DNA of 64,000 nucleotides from Mobula hypostoma (Eukaryota), in NCBI RefSeq assembly GCF_963921235.1, contig NC_086097.1:3038001-3102000 (forward strand), read 5' to 3'. This document shows, in pieces, positions 51,176-61,807 of the stretch. The notes under the pieces were generated by a model, which was given only the letters and a program-made list of their open reading frames with translations, had not been told where the DNA came from and ran no database searches. The position numbers were made by a program, and so were the translations under genes. Every line of letters begins with the position of its first letter. Positions within the stretch are counted from its first letter, which is position 1.

Positions 51176-53267
51176 GCACAGGACAAGCTTGAATAAGCTG
51201 TGCTTACATTCTAAGGAACAAAATCTGAACCTATTCAGTCTTTCCTTATAACTCAGGCCCTTCAGACCTGGCAACATCCTTGTAAATATTCTCGTTACTC
51301 ATTCAACCTTATTGACATCTTTCCTGCAGGTAGGTGACCAAAACTGCACACAATACTCTAAATTAGGCCTCACCAATGTCTTATACAACTTCAGCATAAC
51401 ATTCCATCTCCTGTACTCAATACATTGATTTATGAAGGCCAATATGCCAAAAGCTTTCTTTACAACCCTACCTTCCTGTGAAACCACTTTCAATGAATTA
51501 TATGGACCTGTATTCCCAGATCCCTTTGTTCTACCACACTCCTCGGTGCCTGCCATTGACTGTATAAGACAGCGTAGAAACCTGGTTGGTTCTACTGAAG
51601 CGCAACACCTTACACTTACTTGCATTAGGTTCCATTTGCCATTTTTCAGCCCATTTTTCCAGCTGATGCAAATCCCTCTGCAAGCTATGAAAGCCTTCTT
51701 CACTGTTCACTACACCTCCAATCTTCATGTCATCTGCAAATTTGCTGATCTAGTTAACAATGTTATCATCCAGATCATTGATAGAAATGATTCTTCTTCA
51801 GGTTTGTCCATCGAAATCCGATGACGATGTCCACTCCTTTAATGGTGAGATCTTCAATGACTATACAGTTCTATCCTGGACCCACAAGCTCTATTGCAGG
51901 TGGGACATGTATATGTGATAGTGGTGGCAACCGTGGCTGCATTTCTCCTGGCTCTCTTCTGCTGTCTTTTGGTTGTTCTTTCCATCTCCAGAATACGAAC
52001 CCCGTCCCTACACAGCTGTCGCCAAGTGGTACGGTCAGCAGCAACATCCTCCAGGTCCTCAGGTCTGATCTTGCACTTCCTTAAAGCATTCTTCATCTGA
52101 TCCTTATAGCGCTTCTTCAGCCCTCCAGCTGAGCGTTGACCATGATGGAGCTGGCTGTATAACCCTCTGCGGAGTAGCCGACATGGGGGCATCCTTATCA
52201 CGTGCCCCAGCCACTGCAGCTGACGCTGGGTGATCACGGCCTCAATACTCCTGCAGTTGGTCTTTACAAGTATTTCGGTGTGAGGCACCCGCTCACGGCA
52301 GGTAATTCCCAGGATGCGCTGGAGGCAGCTTATGTGGAAGCGCTCCAAGGACTTGATGTGACGGCTGTAGGTTACCCAAGCTTCACAGCTATAAAGGAGG
52401 GTGGTGACACAGACCGCTTGGTATACAGCGACCTTTGTGGGGGGACAAAGGCTCCTGTTCTGAAAGACTCTATGCCGAAGTCTCCTAAAGGCAGCTGATG
52501 CCTGTTTAATGCGGCTCTGGATGTCGTCGTCAATGCCGCTATCCTCAGAGAGAATACTCCCCAGATATTTGAAAGATGGCACTACTGACAGCTTTTCATC
52601 ACCAACAGTGAAGGCAGGTAGAGTGGGTGGGACACTGGTACTCGGTTGGCAAACCACTTCTGTCTCGGTGGTATTGACAGTCAGCCCCATCCTGCTGTAC
52701 GCTCTCACCACCACGGCAAGAACAGTCTGAAGATCTTCCGGAGTGTGGGCCACAAGAGCACAGTCGTCTGCATACTGCAGCTCCAGGACCCACTCTCTAC
52801 GGAGTTTGGTGGTTGCGTGGAGCCTCCTGATGTCAAAGAGGTTGCCATCTAATCTGATGTCCACTGCCACACCGCTGCTGTCTTCAGTCTCGTTGTGGAG
52901 AAGCTTGGTAACACACAAGAGGAAAATGTTAAAGAGCACTGGCGCTAGCACACACCCCTGCCTCACCCCTGTGCGTACCAGGAAGGGCTCGGACTCTTGT
53001 CCTCCTATGGTCACCTGAGCAGTCATCCCATCGTGGAACTGGCAGAGGATGTTAACAAATTTATTGGGACAGCCAAACCTGAGGAGGACATCCCATAAGA
53101 GCTCTCTTTGCACAGTATCGAATGCTTTGGAGAGGTCGACAAAGGCCATAAACAGGTCCTGATGTCGCTCCCGGCACTTTTCCTGAAGCTGCCAGGCTTT
53201 GAAGATCATGTCGATTGCGCTCCTGTTCTTCCTAAATCCACACTGCGATTCAGGCAGCATTGACTCA

Positions 53268-54547
53268 ATAGACAATAGACAATAGGTGCAAGAGTAGGCC
53301 ATTCGGCCCTTCGAGCCAGCACCACCATTCACTGTGATCATGACTGATCATCCACAATCAGTATCCAGTTCCTGCCTTATCCCCATAACCTTTGATTCCG
53401 CTATCTTTAAGAGCTCTATCCATCTCTTTTTTGAAAGCATCCAGAGACTTGGCCTCCACAGCCTTCTGGGGCAGAGCATTCCATATATCCACCACTCTCT
53501 GGGTGAAAAAGTTTTTCCTCAACTCCATTTCTAAATGGCCTACCCCTAATTCTTAAACTGTGGCCTCTGGTTCTGGACTCACCCATCAGCGGGAACATGC
53601 TTCCTGCCTGCAGCGTGTCCAATCCCTTAATAATCTTATATGTTTCAATAGGATCCCCTCTTAGCCTTCTAAATTCCAGAGTATACAAGCCCAGTTGCTC
53701 CAATCTTTCGACATATGACAGTCCCGCTATCCCGGGAATTAACCTTGTGAACCTATGCTGCACTCCCTCAATAGCAAGAATGTCCCGCCTCAAATTTGGA
53801 GACAAAACTGCACATAGTACTCCAGGTGTTGTCTCACCAGGGCCCTGTACAGCTGCAGAAGGATCTCTTTGCTCTTATACTCAATTCCCCTTGTTATGAA
53901 GCCCAACATGCCATTAGCTTTCTTCACTGCCTGCTGTACTTGCATGCTTGCTTTCAGTGACTGATGTACAAGAACATCTAGATCTCGTCGTGCTTCCCCT
54001 TTTCCTAACTTGACTCCATTTAGACAATAATCTGCCTTCCCGTTCTTACCACCAAAGTGGATAACCTCACATTTATCCACATTAAACTGCATCTGCCATG
54101 CATCTGCCCACTCACCCAGCCTGTCCAAGTCACCCTGCATTCTCATAACATCCTCCATTTCACACTGCCACCCAGCTTTGTGCCATCGGCAAATTTGCTA
54201 ATGTTACTTTTAATTCCCTCATCTAAATCATTAATATATATTGTAAACAGCTGCAGTCCCAGCACTGAACCCTGTGGTACCCCACTGGTCACCGCCTGCC
54301 ATTCCAAAAGGGACCCATTAATCGCTACTCTTTGTTTTCTGTCAGCCAGCCAATTTTCAATCCTTGTCAGTACTCTGCCTCCAATACCATGTGCCCTAAT
54401 TTTGCCCACTAATATCCTATGTGGGACTTTATCAAAGGCTTTCTGAAAGTCCAGGACAACTACACCCACTGGCTCTCCCTTGTCCATTTTCATAGTTACA
54501 TCCTCAAAAAATTCCAGAAGATTAGTCAAGCACGATATCCCCTTCGT
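53268..54547 (-). mobile_element. CR1 3' fragment nested in the RTE
   Basis: SCLTNLLEFF...FADGTKLGG; (ctattgt)n tail. Confidence 0.92.
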
Positions 54548-56215
54548 AAGCATCACCTTAGCCAGGACCTTTCCAGCAACAGAAAGGAGTGATATGCCCC
54601 TACTATTGCTGCAGATGGCCTTGTCACCCTTGTTCTTATAAATGACAACGATGTTTGCATTTCTCCATTGCTGTGGGACGTTCTCATCAGTCCGGGCCTT
54701 GGTGATGTACTGGTAGAGGGTGTGCATACACATGTACCCTCCGTTCTTCAGTAACTCAGCAGGGATACTGTCAGTGCCAGGGGACTTGTTGTTCTTAAGG
54801 GAATGGACAGCTGATAGAACTTCCTGGAAGGTTGGTGGTAGACTGAGGTCGTGGATAGGAGGAAGTTCAGGCAGTTCGTCCAGGATGGTGGGGTCTGCGT
54901 CAAAGTCCTGATTAAGCGGGGTGTTAAAATGCTCAGCCCACCTCAGCAGAATGGTATTCTGATTCTTCAGAAACCATCTACTGTTTTCAGAGGAGTAACG
55001 CATATATTTATTGGGCCGTAGATGGTTTTGACAGCATTGTAAAAATTATGCATGTTATTATTATCGGCAAAGGACTGGATTTCATGTGTCTTTTCAGTCC
55101 AGCACTCATTTTGTATGGCCCGTATTGCCTTTTGCACTTTCCTCCGAGCTGCCTGCCAATGCTACCTGATGCTGGTGGATGATGGGTTGTCTGAAGTTGC
55201 CCGGTGTGCTTTGTGCAAGTCCCTAAGCAAGTTGTGGATGGTGTCTGAGTTATCATCAAACCAGTCTTGGTGGTTCCTGCTGTTATGGCCGATGGATTGG
55301 GCTGCTGCCTCATAGAGCGCAGAGCTGATACAGGTCCACTGTTGTTCATTGGTATTTTCTGAGCTCAGACAAGGTCCCAGCTCCCTTAGTTTCTCAGCTG
55401 GGATGCGTCGAAACTCACTTCTTGCTTCTGTGTTTCTCATGTGGTTGCAATTTAGCCGCTTTTTATCGGGTTTTTGCAGCTGCAAGGGGGGGAGGGGGGA
55501 CGCACTTTCATATGGAGCTTGGCCACAATCATACAGTGGTCAGTCCAGCACTCTGCACCTCTCATGGCACGGGTGATAAGAACATCCTTGATGTCACTCA
55601 CAGTGATGAAGTCGATCATGTGCCAATGTTTAGAGTGAGGGTGCATCCAAAAGGTCTTATATTTTGCCTTCTGCTGGAAGATGATGTTGGTTATGGTAAG
55701 GTTATGCTCAGAGCAAAGAGTAAGTAACCTCATGCCATTTGCATTCACCTTGCCAATACCATGCCTACCTAGCACTCCACTCCATATCCTGTTGTTCTGT
55801 CCCACCCTAGCGTTGAAGTCCCCAAGCAAAAGGATCTTATCATTCTTAGGGATCTGGCAAAGAGCTTCATCCAATATCTGATAAAAGCCTTCCTTGGCCT
55901 CATTCTCAGATGGCAAAGTTGGTGCATAGGCACTGAGAAGCATGGCATAACGTTTCTTTGCCAGGGGGATACGGAGGGTCATCAGTCTTTCACTAATGCC
56001 AACAGGTGTTTCTGTGAGACTTGGTAGAGGGAAAACCTTTCCAGAAGAAGGTGTAACCCATCCCTTCCTCTGTTAAAGAGCCTTCTTCCGGTAGCCTGGT
56101 CTCACTCAGGCAGCAATGTCGATGTTGTAGCACCTCAGCTCAGCAGCGATCAAGGCTGTTCTCCGGTGAGGTCTGTCAGAGATGCCACACCAGTCCAGGA
56201 GAGTCCTCACATTCC

Positions 56216-57457
56216 TTTCTTTTTCAATCTTTCTATTAATTTCAGCATCATAGACATTACAGAAGATAGGTACAGAGAAATTGGGATTACATTATTGATA
56301 AATAGTTTATACAATTATGAGCTCAATTGACACATAATTAATGAACCTCCCAAAATCTCACAAAGTACAAATATAATATAGGAAAATATAAAGTGAAAAT
56401 ATAAAAATATCATGAAAAAAAAATTATACCCCAAAAGGAAAAAATCTAACCCAATTAAAAGAAAACTAAACTAAACTAAAAAAAGAAAAGAAAAAGAATG
56501 GGCTATTATGATACCTCAGATAAGACCATTAGTGTCGTTAACTCCGCTCCTCTCCCCGAATATGGAGTAACAAAATAGAATTGGAAAGGGTCAAATTACA
56601 TCATATGAAAGTATTGAATAAATGGTCTCCAAATCTCTTCAAATTTAATAGAAGGGTTGTAAATGACGCTTCTAATTTTTTCTAAATTTAAGCAAGACAT
56701 AGTTTGAGAAAACCATTGAAATGTAGTAGGAGAAATCTTTACAATTCAATAATATGGATCTTTTAGCCGTTAGTATAACAAAAACAATCATCCGACAAGC
56801 TGAGGGGGTCAGATGATGTTGTTCTATCGTTGGTAAATCAAAGATAGGATGAGGTTGTAAATCAATATCAAAACAGTTGAAATAATATCAAAGATGTCAT
56901 CCCAGTATTTCTTCAGCAAAGGACATGACCAAAACGTATGAGTTAATGAGGCTGTCTCAGAATTACATCTATCACATACAGGATTGATATGAGAGTAGTA
57001 ACGAGCTAATTTATCCTTGGATATGAGTCCTGTGCACTACTTTAAACATAGAGACGAAGAATTAACTAACAGAAATTTTTTTTTGCCATTTCTCTATAGG
57101 TAAAGTAAGCTTAAATTCCCTTTCCCAGTCGTTCTTAATTGAATTTGATACATCTGGATTTATTTTCATAATCATATTATAAATAATTGCTATTGAATCT
57201 TTCTGAAAAGGATTTAAATCTAGAATTCTTTCCATTATATCCGATGAATATGAAATCGGAAAGGTACTAAGAACAGTATTTAAAAAGTTTCAAATCTGTA
57301 AGTATCTAAAGAAATGGGATCTAGGTAGATTATGTTTATTAGATAATTGTTCAAAAGACGTAAAACATTTATCCAAAAATAAATCAGAAAAACATATCAT
57401 ACCTTTAGTTTTCCAGCCTAGATAGGCTTGATCCAAAAAAGAGGATTGAAAGAAAAA
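56216..57457 (-). mobile_element. L1/Tx1-clade 3' fragment nested in the RTE
   Basis: AT-rich, CDRC...THTFWSC knuckle, T-rich tail. 14-bp TSD agtcct(c/t)acattcc at 56202 and 57458. Confidence 0.88.
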
Positions 57458-58183
57458 AGTCCTTACATTCCATGTTGCCAGTTTTAGGTTGTATGGTTTC
57501 TTATTTCGACTGCAGCAGTGGAATAAACCGATTGGCGCGGTAACCTATCCAGGTGAGTGATTGAATGGGCAATTTTTAGGCCACCTTTTCTAGGCCCTTC
57601 CCCAATTGGGGTGAGCACTGCGGTCCCTAAATAGGGCTGCTCAGTCACACAGGGGTCTGCCGAGAACAGCTGCCACTCAGTCCCAGCTGCTAGCGACCAA
57701 ATACCCTGTGCCGCTGCCATGCAGGGTTCTGACTAGGAGCTCCCAGTCCATTCGTACCTGCTCCCATTGCCAGACACCCCATCACTGTCAGACTTCAACC
57801 ATATGTAATGTCCAGGTATTGTTCACCGTAGTCAGAGGTGGAGACCTGCGCAAGGAAAATTTTAAAGTGCCGCAGGGGGTGCGCCATCCCCAGTAGCACT
57901 ATCTTCACCATGATGAGGTAAATCCCGGTGACAAGGGTGATCCCAGGACAATCGGTCCCACATGTTGGCTGCAGGAGGCTGCCGGGTCCTTAGTCTGTTA
58001 AGGCCCGCCTATTGCGCGCCGCCAGTGCATTGCTTTTCTGTCAGGGTGTGCTCCCTTAGCCTTGTCTCAATAGACTTACCACAAGGCAGTGGGGCTATTT
58101 GCCCATAGCTGGGACAGTGGTTGACGGGCACCAGGGTGGGCCTGCACACCACGTCTCTGGGGCCCACTGCAGCTCTGAGATCC

Positions 58184-58468
58184 CCTGTAGTTTAGCCTGG
58201 GTCTGTAACATACCCAGTTTCCGTGTGTGGCTCCGAGGAGGCACTGCAGGAGTCTTGGTGGTGGAGAGGCTCTATACTGGCAGGAGGAGGCTTACAGACT
58301 CGGCTCCTCTTTTCACCCTCTGTTAAGAAGGCGAGCCAGCGTGAATGGCTGTAAGCAGAGAGTAGCAAGCAGAGAGCACTATGTGGCATGCAGCATGCAC
58401 TAACTACAAACACTACTGCACTAGGCACTTCACACGCACCCTGTGAGCAAATACTCCTACCCACACAC
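58184..58468 (-). ncRNA. Predicted HDV-like ribozyme at the RTE 5' end
   Basis: P1 GTGTGTG/CACACAC, P2 CCTGCAGT/ACTACAGG, P3 GCC/AGC, L3 TCCTCGG, P1.1 CC/GG, P4 CTGGGT/ACCCAG, J4/2 GCTAA, all in the correct order. Confidence 0.78.
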
Positions 58469-58939
58469 AAAACAGAGATGATAAACAACAGACCCAGCAC
58501 TGATCCCTGTGGCACTCCATTAGTCACAGGCCTCCAGTACGAGAGGGCAGCCCTCTACCACCTCCCTCTGGCTTCTGCCACAAAGTCAATGTCTAATCCA
58601 ATTTACCACCTCGTATTAGTAACAGATGCAAAATGCTGGAGGGACTCAGCAGGCCAGGTCAGGCAGCATCTATGGAAAAGAGTGCAGTTGACATTTTGGG
58701 CCAAGACCTTTCAGCAGTACAAAAGGGCTACTTCATCTTGAATGCTGAGTGACTCAACCTTCTTGACCAACCTACCATGTGGGGCCTTGTTAACATCCAT
58801 ATAGAGAATATCCATTGCCTTGCCTTCATCCACTTTCTTGGTAACTTCCTTGAAAGCTTCCTATAAGATTGGGTAGATATGACCTACCATGCTGACTATC
58901 CTTAATCAGTTCATGTCTGTCCAAATACTTACTTATGCT

Positions 58940-59710
58940 TCTGGTCAAGATGGGCCTGCATACAACGCTGCTTTGGTCGACTTCTGGATTGATTATGAAA
59001 CCACTTCTTTTATGTCCTTGACATTTGTTTCTCGTTGTGGATGTGACTCTGGAATTGTTGGAGCTTGTGATTTGCAATTTGGAGGTCTTCCAGCAATCTG
59101 CTGTCTCTGAGAGGATTCCAGGAAGCAGAGGCAGGGTGCCCAAACCTCAGGGCGAGAAGGCTGTAATGTCTGTGGTGCATAAGCTGATGTTTGACTCTAT
59201 TTCACCGATTAAAGAGACAAGGGAGATTGAAACATTGAGGTGACTGCAGAAGGTGAGCGCTGGCCGCCTGTTTTTTGATCGCTGGTGAGATCGGTTTCCT
59301 GCTGGAGAAGGAAGACTGCCTTTTGATCGCTGGGGGAATCGATCAGCTATGGAGAGAAGACGCTGCCTTTGGATCACTGGGGGATCACTCTGCTACAGAG
59401 GGGAAAGGCCGGGAGCATGCTACCCAGGTTTTCAGCATTTTGGATAGAAACTTGGACTCTAGACTTTTTTCAGTCTTACAGTTTTTATATTCTGTGTTTT
59501 TCGACCTATCTTTCTCATTTTTTTTGTGCATGGGAGAGGGGGATTATGGGGTTGATGTGCGTGTTCTGTTTTTTGTTCTTTTTTTTTGTGTGGGGAGGAG
59601 GAATTTGGTGGTTGATAATTGTATCCCATTCTTTTTTTTTATTGATTTCATTGCTATCTAAAGAAGAATTTCAGAATTGTATGTACTTTGATAATAGATG
59701 AACCTTTGAT
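58940..59710 (+). mobile_element. Non-coding retroposon with a Rex1-like tail, inserted in CR1
   Basis: Interrupts the CR1; starts near caagatgg and ends tactttgataatagatgaacctttga. Confidence 0.5.
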
Positions 59711-61807
59711 ATAGCCAGTCCCTTAGAATACCTTCCAATAACTTATCCACATCTGATAACAGACTCACCAGCTGATAATTTCCTGGTTTCTGTATAGAGC
59801 ATTTCTTAACAGCGGAACACGATCGGCTATCCTCCTTCCTCTAGCAACTCTCCTGTCGCTAAAGATGATTTAAATATGTCTGCTAGGAAAACTTCAAACC
59901 TTCTTTTAGCGCTCCTGGTTTCTTTCTCAAGTGTTCTCTTGAATTTCTTATTTTCCGTGAGTGCACCATTTGTTCCTACCTGCCGAGACCACCTGCACTT
60001 GTTGTTTTTACTTTTGGTTCTGACAGACACATGCAAACTTTGTACTGTTAAAGTTTCACTTCTGAAGGCCTCCCTCCCACTTACCATGACACCTTTGCCA
60101 GAAAGCAGCTTGTTCCAATCTACACTTGATGAAGGGTTTCGGCCTGAAACATCGACTAATGTTTTCAACTGATGCTGACTGACCTACTGAGTTCCTCCAG
60201 CGCATTGTGAGTGTTCCTTTGACAACAGCATCTGCAGATTATTTTGTGTTTCCAATCTATACTTGCCAGATCTTTTCTGATGCCATCACAATTGGCCTTT
60301 TTCTAATTTAGAATCTCAACTCATGCACCAGACCAATTTTTTTTGCATATTTACTTCGAAACTAATTGCATTTTGGTCATTAGGTACAAGTGTTCCCCTA
60401 CACAAACTTCTGTCACCTGTCCTGTCCCATTCCCAGCAGATCCAGTATCGTACACACTCTCATTGGGACTTCTATGTACTGATGAAGGAATCTTTCCTGA
60501 ATACATTTGACAAACTTTATCCCAATTAGTCCTTTTACAGTCAATATGTGGAAAGTTGAAATTACCTACTATAACAACCTTATGTTTATAACAGTCTGCG
60601 ATCTCTCTACAAATTTCTTCCTCTAAATCACACAGACTGTTGGGTGGTCTGTAATATTGCCCTATTAATCAGGCCATAGCTTTCTTATGTTTTAGTCCCA
60701 CCCATAACCTCTCTAGTCTGTCTTGACTGAACACTGCCATGACATTTTCCGCGACGAGTCACACCTCTCCTTCTCTTTTCATCCTTCCCGTTTTGTCATG
60801 TCTAAAACAACGGAACCCCGGAATATTGAGCTGCCAGTCCTGTCCCTCCTACAACCGCTCACTAATAGCGACAATACCAAGATTCCAGGTGTTGATCCAT
60901 GCCCTGAGATCATCTGCCTTCCCTGCAATGCTTGCATTGAAATATGTGCAGCTTAAGGCACTAGTCGCATCAGACTTAATCTTTTGATTCTTGACTTTTA
61001 TCTGAGGGCTTACCAACATTTGCTCTCAGAACCACTCCTCTAACTGTCTTTACACTCTGGTTCCCATCCCCCTGCAAATCCAGTTTAAACATCACCACGC
61101 AGTATTAGCAAATCTTTCCACTAAGATATCCGTGCCCTTCCAGTACAGGTGCAGATGGTCCCTTCTGTATAGATCCCGCCTGATCTGGAAGAGAGCTCAA
61201 TGATCCAAAAACCTTATGCCCTCCCTCGTACACCAAATCCTGAGCCACATGATGAACTGGATGAACTACTTATTTCTGGCCTCACTAGCACATGGCACAG
61301 GTGGCAATCCTGAGATCACATCCCTGGAGATCCTGTCCTTTACCTTAACATCTAATTCCCTGAACTTACTTGCCACTTTTCATATCTACATCATTCATCA
61401 TGGACCATGGCCTCTGGCTATACACCCTGCAGAGGACTCAATCCAAGCTGTCCTGGACTCTGGCACCCAGGAGGCAACATACCATCTGGGAATCTTGTTC
61501 TCACAGAACCTCCTTTCTGTTCCCATAACTAACGAATCCCCTATCACCACAGCTTGTCTCTTTTCCCCCCTTCCCTTCTGAATTGTGGTCAGACTCAGCG
61601 CCAGAGAACTAACCTCTGTGACTTTCCTATGATAGGTCATTTCCCCCTCCCCCCCCAAAAGTATGCAAAGCAATATACTTGTGGTTGGGGGGGATGGCCA
61701 GAGGGGTGCTCTGCACTGACTACTTAACCCCTTTCCCCTACCTGACTGTCACCCAGTTTCCTGCGTCCTTCACCACGTGTGTAACTACAAACGTTTGTAC
61801 CTTTCTA

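What the first reader, a model, noticed from the sequence alone, without database searches (positions are those of the whole stretch)
58184..58468. HDV-like self-cleaving ribozyme marking the 5' end of a full-length RTE retrotransposon
Seen on the - strand, in nested double-pseudoknot order: P1 5' GTGTGTG (58468-58462); a 211-nt J1/2; P2 5' CCTGCAGT (58250-58243); P3 GCC; L3 TCCTCGG; P3' AGC; P1 3' CACACAC (58229-58223); GG (P1.1 with the CC of L3); P4 CTGGGT/ACCCAG; J4/2 GCTAA with the candidate catalytic C at 58195; P2 3' ACTACAGG (58191-58184). The predicted cut, 5' of G58468, lies 3 nt from the independently located TSD (58472-58481), so the element starts almost exactly where the ribozyme would cleave. 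Established: HDV-like ribozymes process the 5' ends of R2, RTE and L1Tc elements. Inference: this fish RTE family releases itself from read-through transcripts in the same way. I do not know whether it has been described for this lineage. One C.A mismatch in each of P2 and P3 suggests this copy has decayed. It is antisense to UNC79.
Basis: partly seen in the sequence, partly recalled or inferred. Interest (0 to 1): 0.88.

Follow-up and report, generated by a model that had tools for sequence, protein, structure and literature searches.

The report
Self-cutting RNA motif starting a fish LINE
The first ~290 bases of a jumping-gene family in this fish genome have the layout of a hepatitis-delta-type self-cutting RNA, placed so that the cut would fall on the family's first base; this is a new example of a known trick, and cutting itself is untested.

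Summary
A descriptor scan of both strands of the window finds only this site.

The element is a TSD-flanked, single-ORF endonuclease plus reverse-transcriptase LINE (58468 to 51791, minus strand). This copy is broken by two nested insertions.

- **5' end.** In 29 copies picked with an internal probe, 23 end within -9..+5 nt of G58468. In a 105-row alignment, 48 of the 104 other copies start exactly GTGTGTG next to unrelated flanks.
- **Pairings.** The family majority restores P3 (C-G in 84 of 105 rows; the window's A is a minority state). P1, P1.1, P4, L3 and the J4/2 C are kept. The P2 C.A mismatch is family-wide (77 of 105). Contigs from two other coded organisms carry U there, giving U-A.
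- **J1/2.** Its ends are predicted to pair next to P1.
- **Against.** There is no Rfam hit and no real covariation. Alternative GT-rich P1 strands lie at nt 28-33. No RNA or cleavage data exist, and the RTE clade is unproven.

Verdict: probably (about 0.65) a genuine HDV-like 5'-processing ribozyme. It is a new member of a known kind.

The parts
58472..58481 (-). Upstream copy of the target-site duplication (TCATCTCTGT)
   Evidence: 8 of 10 identical to 51790-51781. Both copies lie inside the split RT motif region of an older LINE.
58469..58471 (-). Three extra T between the TSD and the element's first base. Probably non-templated addition at the 5' junction (inference).
   Evidence: In one search the base at -1 is T in 31 of the 48 copies that start exactly GTGTGTG.
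58462..58468 (-). P1 5' strand (GTGTGTG). G58468 is the family's first base and the predicted cleavage site lies 5' of it.
   Evidence: 48 of 104 other copies start exactly GTGTGTG next to unrelated flanks. Column majorities are 72-100 of 105.
58253..58461 (-). J1/2 peripheral domain (209 nt if P2 is taken as 10 bp). Predicted closing helix 58461-58454 with 58266-58260 directly after P1, leaving 7 nt (58259-58253) before P2.
   Evidence: the ends pair in both the MFE and centroid structures. Overall stability is not unusual (z -0.87). Small tandem units inside it vary in copy number between copies.
58243..58252 (-). P2 5' strand (CTCCTGCAGT)
   Evidence: 10 bp with 58191-58182. There is one U.G pair and one C.A mismatch (58246/58188), the latter kept in 77 of 105 rows.
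58240..58242 (-). P3 5' strand (GCC)
58233..58239 (-). L3 (TCCTCGG). C58238 and C58237 would form P1.1.
   Evidence: column majorities are 78-95 of 105. The low values fall at a CpG.
58230..58232 (-). P3 3' strand. It reads AGC in this copy and GGC in the family majority.
   Evidence: G at 58232 in 86 of 105 rows. The C58240-G58232 pair occurs in 84 of 105 and C.A in 10.
58223..58229 (-). P1 3' strand (CACACAC)
   Evidence: six columns at 94-99 of 105. The last column (a CpG) is C in 61 and T in 36, so the first pair is G-C in 38 rows and G.U in 28.
58221..58222 (-). GG that pairs with the CC of L3 (P1.1)
   Evidence: C-G in 90 and 71 of 105 rows. The second pair loses G to A at a CpG in 21 rows.
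58197..58217 (-). P4 hairpin: CTGGG/CCCAG, 5 bp in the family and a sixth pair only in this copy
   Evidence: the five pairs are kept in 74-88 of 105 rows. The sixth position is T.T in 84.
58192..58196 (-). J4/2 (GCTAA) with the candidate catalytic C58195
   Evidence: C in 91 of 105 rows and T in 9.
58182..58191 (-). P2 3' strand (ACTACAGGGG)
56216..57457 (.). Nested insertion 1 (1,242 bp, unclassified), absent from other family copies
   Evidence: other copies align 58468-57458 and then continue at 56215.
54548..56215 (-). Element body: end of the 5' UTR, the AP-endonuclease domain and the N-terminal part of RT
   Evidence: Exo_endo_phos_2 E 6e-5 (23.3 bits, below Pfam's 27.4-bit cut-off) and RVT_1 E 1e-15.
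53268..54547 (.). Nested insertion 2 (about 1,280 bp), which carries an RT fragment of a different LINE (VPQGSVLG...YINDL type)
51791..53267 (-). Element body: C-terminal part of RT, a C-terminal Cys2His2-like motif, stop TGA at 51856-51854, a 63-nt 3' UTR ending in (GAA)3
   Evidence: (RVT_1 E 9e-27)
51781..51790 (-). Downstream copy of the target-site duplication (TCATTTCTAT)

Best explanation
The first ~290 nt of this LINE family encode an HDV-like (nested double-pseudoknot) self-cleaving ribozyme. Its P1 5' strand is the element's first seven bases.

Proposed mechanism:
- When a source copy is transcribed as part of a longer RNA, P1 (nt 1-7 with CACACAC), P1.1, P2, P3 and P4 fold.
- A roughly 210-225-nt J1/2 domain closes on itself right after P1 and brings P1 next to the 10-bp P2.
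- The J4/2 cytosine catalyses cleavage 5' of G1.
- This yields an RNA that starts exactly at the element's first base and becomes the template for target-primed reverse transcription.

The window copy itself is a dead insertion. P3 is mutated (G to A at 58232), two nested insertions interrupt it, and the ORF is broken.

Shown here: the motif, its position at the family's 5' end, and its retention in the family majority. Inferred: catalysis, read-through transcription as the RNA source, and the role of the J1/2 domain.
For: 1. **Motif complete and in canonical order.** All segments are present at the stated coordinates. It is the only hit of the descriptor on both strands of the window. Simulations gave 16 cores in 25.6 Mb, and 0 of them had a P1 strand.

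2. **Predicted cut site is the family's 5' end, established independently.**
- Of 29 copies picked with an internal probe (nt 419-769), 23 have homology ending within -9..+5 nt of nt 1. Five are truncated at nt 46, 114, 144, 150 and 333. One has a look-alike flank.
- Of the 104 other aligned copies, 48 carry exactly GTGTGTG and 24 more have one mismatch, next to unrelated flanks.
- Copies of a variant that is 4 nt shorter at nt 8-11 (about 5 read off the rows printed) still begin GTGTGTG.

3. **Family majority keeps every element (105 rows).**
- P3 pairs: 90, 84 and 84.
- P1.1: 90 and 71.
- P4: 74-88.
- P1: the six inner pairs are kept in 73-89 rows. The first pair is G-C in 38 and G.U in 28.
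- J4/2 C: 91.
- The window's P3 mismatch is a minority state.

4. **Contigs of two other coded organisms (runs X8 and X10) cover the core.** They differ from this genome's majority at only two listed core positions. Position 58246 is C to U, turning the P2 C.A mismatch into U-A. Position 58223 is C to U, giving G1.U.

5. **J1/2 ends pair directly after P1.** This is seen in MFE and centroid folds of two copies. It matches the short-linker, structured-P1.2, extended-P2 arrangement shown to activate large HDV-like ribozymes (PMC4908430; part 1 of the text and passages read).

6. **The fold is energetically plausible.** Folds forced to contain P1+P3+P4 lie 4.4-9.6 kcal/mol above the MFE before P2 and P1.1 are counted.

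7. **Precedent.** Review passages state that HDV-like ribozymes sit at the 5' ends of R2, R4, L1Tc and RTE elements and cut at the 5' junction (PMC3774820; PMC6765202).
Against: - **No Rfam match.** No HDV-type model matches at E up to 10 in the window or in 20 other copies. A 200-nt insertion and unmodelled pseudoknots could explain this, but it is still a failed test.
- **No covariation.** The copies are one family (median 5.5% from the column majority). The 11 rows with C-G at the P2 mismatch do not form a subfamily.
- **P1 is low-complexity GT/CA.** Sliding the partner by 2 columns still pairs 57-75% of cells. Of the 25 copies with a strict core, 17 carry an alternative perfect P1 strand at nt 28-33, and 7 carry only that one.
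- **The J1/2 domain is no more stable than shuffles.** z is -0.87 and +0.49.
- **The majority P2 keeps a C.A mismatch.**
- **The first P1 pair is split.** It is G-C in 38 rows and G.U in 28, and which the source copy had is unclear because the site is a CpG.
- **T at -1.** T precedes G1 in 31 of 48 exact starts. I read this as non-templated addition, but it could mean the RNA starts one base earlier.
- **The descriptor was written post hoc.**
- **The table of differences is truncated** (16 rows not shown).
Confidence: 0.65

Rival explanations
1. The element's 5' end is set by transcription initiation from an internal promoter at G1. The HDV-like arrangement would then be a catalytically inactive or vestigial structured 5' UTR, for example a protein-binding or translation element.
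For: - A sharp common 5' end is what an internal promoter would also give.
- No cleavage or RNA data exist.
- The majority P2 has a mismatch.
- There is no Rfam match.
- L1Tc shows that one 5' segment can be both promoter and ribozyme (PMC8256844 passage), so the two roles are not exclusive.
Against: It does not explain why a complete double-pseudoknot layout, with the P1 strand on the first seven bases, should exist. It also does not explain why the two core differences in related organisms both improve the fold.
Confidence: 0.2
2. Chance resemblance. GT/CA-rich low-complexity sequence at the 5' end happens to complement a CACACAC run beside a fortuitous P2/P3/P4 arrangement.
For: - P1 is a dinucleotide repeat and several GT runs nearby could pair equally well.
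- The first-stage scan looked at very many windows.
- The descriptor is post hoc.
Against: - The core alone is expected about 0.08 times per window, and 0 of 16 simulated cores had a P1 strand.
- The core lies within 300 nt of an independently mapped element end, with P1 on its first base.
- L3, P1.1 and the J4/2 spacing all fit.
- The majority improves the fold rather than degrading it.
Confidence: 0.08
3. The ribozyme is real but uses one of the alternative GT strands at nt 28-33 as P1, so it cuts about 30 nt inside the element.
For: Perfect alternative strands exist in 17 of the 25 copies with a strict core.
Against: - None of the 29 copies sampled without bias starts at nt 28-33.
- Progeny of such a cut would lose nt 1-27, yet the family keeps them.
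- In the window copy the alternative strand is imperfect.
Confidence: 0.05

Closest known systems
Large HDV-like ribozymes of the mosquito drz-Agam-2 type (Webb et al. 2016, PMC4908430; part 1 of the text and passages read)
   Same: - Nested double pseudoknot with a 7-bp P1.
- An additional structured domain in J1/2 (P1.2).
- An extended P2 (12 bp there, 10 bp here).
- Short linkers, so that P1 and P2 are pinched together.

Their link to RTE-type retrotransposons is recalled from Ruminski et al. 2011, which I could not read.
   Different: - The host is a fish, not an insect.
- J1/2 is about 210-225 nt, and I could not check how this compares with the mosquito domain.
- There is no detectable sequence or Rfam-model similarity.
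- Activity is untested here.
R2 5' ribozyme (Eickbush and Eickbush; PMC3774820 and PMC6765202, passages read)
   Same: An HDV-like fold in the 5' UTR of a non-LTR retrotransposon. It frees the element RNA from a longer co-transcript by cutting at or near the 5' junction.
   Different: - R2 is a site-specific, restriction-like-endonuclease element in rDNA, co-transcribed by Pol I.
- This element has an AP-type endonuclease and inserts in dispersed sites.
- In many R2 lineages the cut lies 9-36 nt upstream in the 28S sequence. Here it would be exactly at the element's first base.
L1Tc Pr77 promoter/ribozyme of Trypanosoma cruzi (passages in PMC8256844 and PMC6765202)
   Same: An HDV-like ribozyme formed by the very first bases of a dispersed AP-endonuclease LINE. 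It releases the element from long transcripts.
   Different: - There, 77 nt act as both promoter and ribozyme.
- Here the motif spans about 290 nt with a large J1/2.
- No promoter activity has been tested here.
RTE-clade LINEs such as HmRTE-e01 and fish Rex3 (Tay et al. 2010, PMC2887409; passages and supplement passages read)
   Same: - A single ORF of about 970-990 aa with AP endonuclease then RT.
- A very short 3' UTR ending in GAA repeats.
- TSDs.
- RT motifs resembling the fish RTE rows shown in that paper's alignment. This was compared by eye only.
   Different: - The 5' UTR is about 0.95-1.2 kb, against 276 bp in HmRTE-e01.
- There is a C-terminal Cys2His2-like motif.
- Clade membership was not tested by phylogeny, so RTEX or Vingi are not excluded.

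Membership tests
HDV-like self-cleaving ribozymes (structure-defined family) | Strand order P1-P2-P3-L3-P3'-P1'-P1.1-P4-J4/2-P2', giving a nested double pseudoknot | tested here: met
   (sequence). In one search the descriptor finds this site only, on both strands of the window.
HDV-like self-cleaving ribozymes (structure-defined family) | P1 of 6-7 bp whose first nucleotide is the cleavage site | tested here: met
   7 bp, GTGTGTG with CACACAC. The six inner pairs are kept in 73-89 of 105 rows, and the first pair is G-C in 38 and G.U in 28. The register is ambiguous by 2 nt because of the GT/CA repeat.
HDV-like self-cleaving ribozymes (structure-defined family) | 3-bp P3 closing a short L3, and a 2-bp P1.1 between L3 and the bases after P1' | tested here: met
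   - Family majority: P3 pairs in 90, 84 and 84 of 105 rows; P1.1 in 90 and 71 of 105.
- Window copy: P3 has only 2 of 3 pairs (A at 58232).
HDV-like self-cleaving ribozymes (structure-defined family) | Cytosine in J4/2 positioned as the general acid/base | tested here: inconclusive
   A C sits at the expected place (58195; C in 91 of 105 rows). Its catalytic role cannot be shown by sequence.
HDV-like self-cleaving ribozymes (structure-defined family) | Match to a curated covariance model of an HDV-type family in Rfam | tested here: not met
   No HDV-type hit at E up to 10 in window 54000-60000, in 58170-58480, or in 20 other copies.
HDV-like self-cleaving ribozymes (structure-defined family) | Pairings supported by compensatory change | tested here: inconclusive
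   This is one young family and the C-G variants at the P2 mismatch are scattered. There is one one-sided change, C.A to U-A, in contigs of two other organisms.
HDV-like self-cleaving ribozymes (structure-defined family) | Divalent-metal-dependent self-scission giving a 5'-OH product | not testable with these tools
Retrotransposon 5'-processing ribozymes (R2, RTE, L1Tc type) | Cleavage site coincides with, or lies just upstream of, the element's 5' end | tested here: met
   23 of 29 unbiased copies end within -9..+5 nt of nt 1, and 48 of 104 start exactly at the P1 strand.
RTE clade of non-LTR retrotransposons | Single ORF with N-terminal AP endonuclease and RT, with no RNase H | tested here: met
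   Pfam finds Exo_endo_phos_2 (23.3 bits, below the 27.4-bit cut-off) and RVT_1 only. The ORF opens near nt 950 of the element.
RTE clade of non-LTR retrotransposons | Very short 3' UTR ending in a simple repeat | tested here: met
   A 63-nt 3' UTR ending in (GAA)3. Compare (GAA)2GA in HmRTE-e01 (PMC2887409 passage).
RTE clade of non-LTR retrotransposons | RT domain groups with RTE references in a phylogeny | not tested
   No labelled reference sequences could be brought into the tools. The named homologues are unclassified teleost and lancelet proteins. The closest solved structure is L1 ORF2p.

The most novel reading that the evidence does not exclude
This would be the first dispersed (non-R2) LINE family of a jawed vertebrate shown to make its own 5' end with an HDV-like ribozyme. 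Its unusually large (over 200 nt) J1/2 domain would not be a passive spacer but a second functional module, such as an internal promoter, a protein-binding site or a translation element. That would make it a vertebrate counterpart of the dual promoter/ribozyme of L1Tc. It might also be linked to an ORF that lacks an in-frame AUG upstream of the endonuclease domain in 25 of 26 copies.
Probability: 0.2. Interest if true: 0.65.

Novelty: new member of a known kind. Interest (0 to 1): 0.5.

Why it matters
If the family's source copies self-cleave, a promoter-less LINE in a fish genome can make a precise 5' end from any read-through transcript. That would extend a strategy documented for R2, insect and nematode RTE elements and L1Tc to a dispersed vertebrate LINE.

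It would also give a natural example of a very large J1/2 peripheral domain on which to test the 'pinch' model of activation. About 100 genomic copies serve as a ready-made mutational series.

Practically, such motifs mark true full-length LINE 5' ends in genome annotation.

Tried and rejected
- **Rfam scans.** Three scans gave no HDV-type match. Only chance-level hits to unrelated families appeared.
- **Stability of J1/2.** It is not above shuffles, so I make no claim of an unusually stable domain.
- **Covariation within the genome.** The 12 rows with G at 58188 looked like a compensatory subfamily. They are less alike than random pairs (0.79 against 0.86 identity), so I read them as scattered decay.
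- **RNA evidence.** No RNA holder was listed. The runs that were laid are contigs of uncertain kind. They gave no cover over 58404-58468 and no molecule ends.
- **Earlier notes of this scan.** There was nothing on this genome or this sequence.
- **Clade assignment.**
  - The names are uninformative.
  - PDB gives only L1 ORF2p and R2.
  - The Vingi paper, Ruminski 2011 and Webb 2009 are not held.
  - Reference RTE sequences seen in a supplement could not be brought into the tools, so I built no tree.
- **Print search.** Searches found no held paper reporting an HDV-like ribozyme in a fish RTE or Rex3 element. In one search, none of the 15 top-ranked papers holds both 'HDV-like' and 'Rex3'. Ruminski 2011 and its supplements, which I could not see, may bear on this.

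Full report
**What is in the sequence.**
- P1 5' GTGTGTG: 58468-58462
- J1/2: 211 nt
- P2 5' CCTGCAGT: 58250-58243
- P3 GCC, L3 TCCTCGG, P3' AGC
- P1 3' CACACAC: 58229-58223
- GG: 58222-58221
- P4 CTGGGT/ACCCAG
- GCTAA with C58195
- P2 3' ACTACAGG: 58191-58184

P2 can be extended by two pairs to 10 bp (58252-58243 with 58191-58182). That helix has one U.G pair and the C.A mismatch. The order of strands is that of a nested double pseudoknot.

**The element and its ends.** BLAST of the region against 29 other genomic copies shows that the family runs in three stretches: 58468 to 57458, then 56215 to about 54548, then 53267 to 51791.
- The window copy therefore carries two nested insertions: 57457-56216, and 54547-53268.
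- The second insertion holds an RT fragment of a different LINE.
- Without them the element is about 4.16 kb.
- It encodes an AP-type endonuclease (Exo_endo_phos_2, E 6e-5, 23.3 bits, below Pfam's 27.4-bit cut-off) and a reverse transcriptase (RVT_1, E 9e-27 and 1e-15).
- It stops at TGA 51856-51854. A 63-nt 3' UTR ends in (GAA)3 at 51791.
- It is flanked by TCATCTCTGT (58481-58472) and TCATTTCTAT (51790-51781), 8 of 10 identical.
- It sits inside the RT coding region of an older LINE. The older element's motif ...VPQGSVLG... lies upstream and ...INDLDDN... downstream.
- Three T's separate the TSD from G58468.

**Is G58468 the family's first base?** I used two samples.
- *Sample 1, internal probe.* probed with element nt 419-769, which does not select for the 5' end. 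It gave 172 candidates, of which 40 were scored, and I fetched 29 other copies. Homology to the window copy ends within -9..+5 nt of nt 1 in 23 of the 29. It ends at nt 46, 114, 144, 150 and 333 in five. It runs on to -69 in one. That last copy sits in another copy of the same older LINE, so the flank is alike for that reason.
- *Sample 2, pattern search.* A 26-nt pattern covering nt 8-33 with up to 2 mismatches has 100 matches in the genome, against 0 for the reversed control.
  - I fetched the 79 matches not yet held and aligned them with the 29 copies and the window.
  - Four of the 108 loci gave no BLAST match at E 1e-20 and were dropped, leaving 105 rows.
  - Some rows are near-duplicates from segmental duplication, for example L030/L098 and L106/L107.
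  - Nt 1-7 were not part of the selecting pattern.
- *Result.* Of the 104 other rows, 48 read exactly GTGTGTG and 24 have one mismatch, next to unrelated upstream sequence.
- A variant that is 4 nt shorter at nt 8-11 still begins GTGTGTG. I count about five such copies in the rows printed.
- The base before G1 is T in 31 of the 48 exact starts (A 11, C 3, G 3), while -2 to -4 look unbiased. I read this as non-templated addition at the 5' junction, which is inference. The three T's in the window copy fit that reading.

**Do the pairings hold in the family?** Counts are over the 105 rows.

| Feature | Rows keeping it |
|---|---|
| P3 pairs | G-C 90, C-G 84, C-G 84 |
| P1.1 | C-G 90 and 71 (the second loses G to A at a CpG in 21) |
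| P4, five pairs | 74-88 |
| P1, six inner pairs | 73-89 |
| P1, first pair | G-C 38, G.U 28 (CpG) |
| L3 columns | 78-95 |
| J4/2 G, C, T, A, A | 91-95 (the C itself 91) |
| P2 mismatch C58246.A58188 | C.A 77, C-G 11, U-A 3 |

- The window's A at 58232 is a minority state (15 rows), so its P3 mismatch is decay of this copy.
- The sixth P4 pair is T.T in 84 rows, so it is private to this copy.
- The remaining rows at the first P1 pair are mostly 5'-end variation.
- The P2 mismatch was therefore in the source copies here.
- Twelve rows carry G at 58188, and 11 of them pair it with C58246. These 12 rows are not a subfamily: mean identity is 0.79 within the group against 0.86 among the others.
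- Median divergence from the column majority is 5.5% (range 2.1-40.8%). The window copy is at 6.7%.
- Because copies decay neutrally after insertion, this alignment can show what the source looked like. It cannot show covariation.

**Related organisms.** No RNA holder was listed for the stretch. Contigs of four coded runs were laid at 80% likeness or more.
- Contigs from runs X8 and X10 (two coded organisms, neither the window's own, since word shares were at most 0.12) cover the core.
- Twenty listed differences fall in 58140-58400. Thirteen simply return the window copy to this genome's majority.
- Within the core, only two listed positions differ from the majority. Position 58246 is C to U, which turns the P2 C.A into U-A. 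Position 58223 is C to U, which makes the first P1 pair G.U.
- Both changes are compatible with the fold or improve it.
- Sixteen rows of that table were not shown, so this view is partial.

**Chance.** I wrote the descriptor after seeing the site, so it is post hoc.
- With P3 relaxed to 2 of 3 pairs, it finds one site on both strands of the window. The single G-initiated, fully pairing 7-mer within 300 nt upstream of it starts at 58468.
- In 200 Markov simulations (25.6 Mb) it found 16 cores, about 0.08 per window, and none had a P1 strand.
- With P3 strict, 25 of 105 family rows pass. Of these, 15 have the P1 strand at aligned nt 1. Three more (L087, L096, L099) have a perfect strand at aligned nt 5, apparently because their 5' ends align 4 nt further in. 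Three have none.
- The strongest single argument is that the strand complementary to the P1' position of the core is the family's independently mapped first seven bases.

**Caveats on P1.** P1 is a GT/CA repeat.
- Sliding the 3' partner by two columns still pairs 57-75% of cells.
- Of the 25 strict-core copies, 17 have an alternative perfect strand at nt 28-33, and 7 have only that one.
- No copy in the unbiased sample starts there. If the ribozyme cuts, the progeny-forming cut is therefore at nt 1.

**The J1/2 domain.**
- Folded alone, its ends pair (58461-58454 with 58266-58260) in both MFE and centroid structures. The same is seen in a near-majority copy.
- This leaves no gap after P1 and 7 nt before P2.
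- Its overall stability is not above shuffles (z -0.87 and +0.49).
- Small tandem units inside it vary in copy number between copies, which suits a tolerant peripheral region.
- Folds forced to contain P1+P3+P4 lie 4.4-9.6 kcal/mol above the unconstrained MFE in five copies, before P2 and P1.1 are counted.
- Webb et al. 2016 (PMC4908430; part 1 of the text and passages read) showed that large natural HDV-like ribozymes are activated when three things combine: a structured J1/2 domain, short linkers and an extended P2. Together these pinch P1 and P2. The layout here has those three features on paper.

**Negative tests.**
- Rfam gives no HDV-type hit in the window or in 20 other copies.
- There are no cleavage, RNA-end or expression data.

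**Mechanism proposed.** A source copy is transcribed within a longer RNA. The 5' part folds and cuts 5' of G1. The freed RNA is reverse-transcribed at a new nick. The RT adds an extra base or a few at the end of the cDNA, which appears as T before G1.
- Shown: the motif, its position and its retention in the family.
- Inferred: catalysis, the source of transcription and the role of J1/2.
- The window copy is dead.

**Comparison and novelty.**
- Review passages state that HDV-like ribozymes cut at the 5' junction of R2, R4, L1 (L1Tc) and RTE elements (PMC3774820). They also say that RTE and baggins elements carrying them lack promoters (PMC6765202).
- A review passage lists lamprey and lancelet among the hosts, but no jawed fish (PMC8256844).
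- My searches found no held paper on such a ribozyme in a fish RTE or Rex3 element. The primary paper, Ruminski et al. 2011, is not held.
- I therefore rate this a new member of a known kind.

**Clade.** The single ORF, the AP endonuclease plus RT, the short 3' UTR with GAA repeats and the TSDs all fit RTE. Compare HmRTE-e01 in PMC2887409.
- By eye, RT motifs resemble the fish RTE rows in that paper's supplement.
- The best named homologues are unclassified teleost proteins at 64-84% identity.
- I could build no phylogeny. A C-terminal Cys2His2-like motif leaves RTEX or Vingi open.

Noticed in passing
window 58489-58554 and 51640-51790 (minus strand); L012/L138: The element is inserted in the RT coding region of an older, abundant LINE, between the ...VPQGSVLG... 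and ...INDLDDN... motifs. A second, independent family copy (L012 = L138) sits 10-20 bp away in the same motif region of another, 68-75% identical copy of that older LINE. This could be chance in a high-copy target, or a target-site preference.
   Followed up: partly
window 57457-56216 and 54547-53268: Two nested insertions, absent from other family copies, break this copy. The second carries an RT fragment of a CR1/L2-like LINE. The first is unclassified.
   Followed up: partly
element nt ~950-1010 (window ~57520-57458) and loci: In 25 of 26 distinct copies with a recognisable start of the endonuclease domain (L[KR]LA[TS]WN), there is no in-frame AUG between the upstream stop and that domain. 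The stop typically lies 19 codons upstream. How the ORF is initiated is open.
   Followed up: partly
window 58469 and aligned copies: The base just before the element's first G is T in 31 of 48 copies that start exactly GTGTGTG, while positions -2 to -4 look unbiased.
   Followed up: partly
window 51860-51900 (minus strand); P0005, P0017: The ORF ends in a Cys2His2-like motif (C-x2-C-x12-H-x3-H in the intact homologues). I do not know this feature from classical RTE elements (recalled, not checked).
   Followed up: no
window ~58380-58430 and aligned copies: Inside the J1/2 region, an 8-nt unit (AGTAGTGY) and a 7-nt unit (TGCATGC) occur in one or two copies in different family members. The window copy has the short form of both.
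   Followed up: no
G000:C1:2908671-2984511 (+), 54-130 kb upstream of the window: Four UNC-79 domain exon matches (best E 3e-22) lie on the plus strand of the same contig. This is consistent with the window lying in later introns of UNC79, and with the element being antisense to it.
   Followed up: partly
L007, L014, L021, L104, L107, L109 and others: Several copies have a (GT)n microsatellite directly upstream of, and continuous with, the GTGTGTG start. This suggests expansion of the element's own 5' repeat, or insertion into GT repeats.
   Followed up: no
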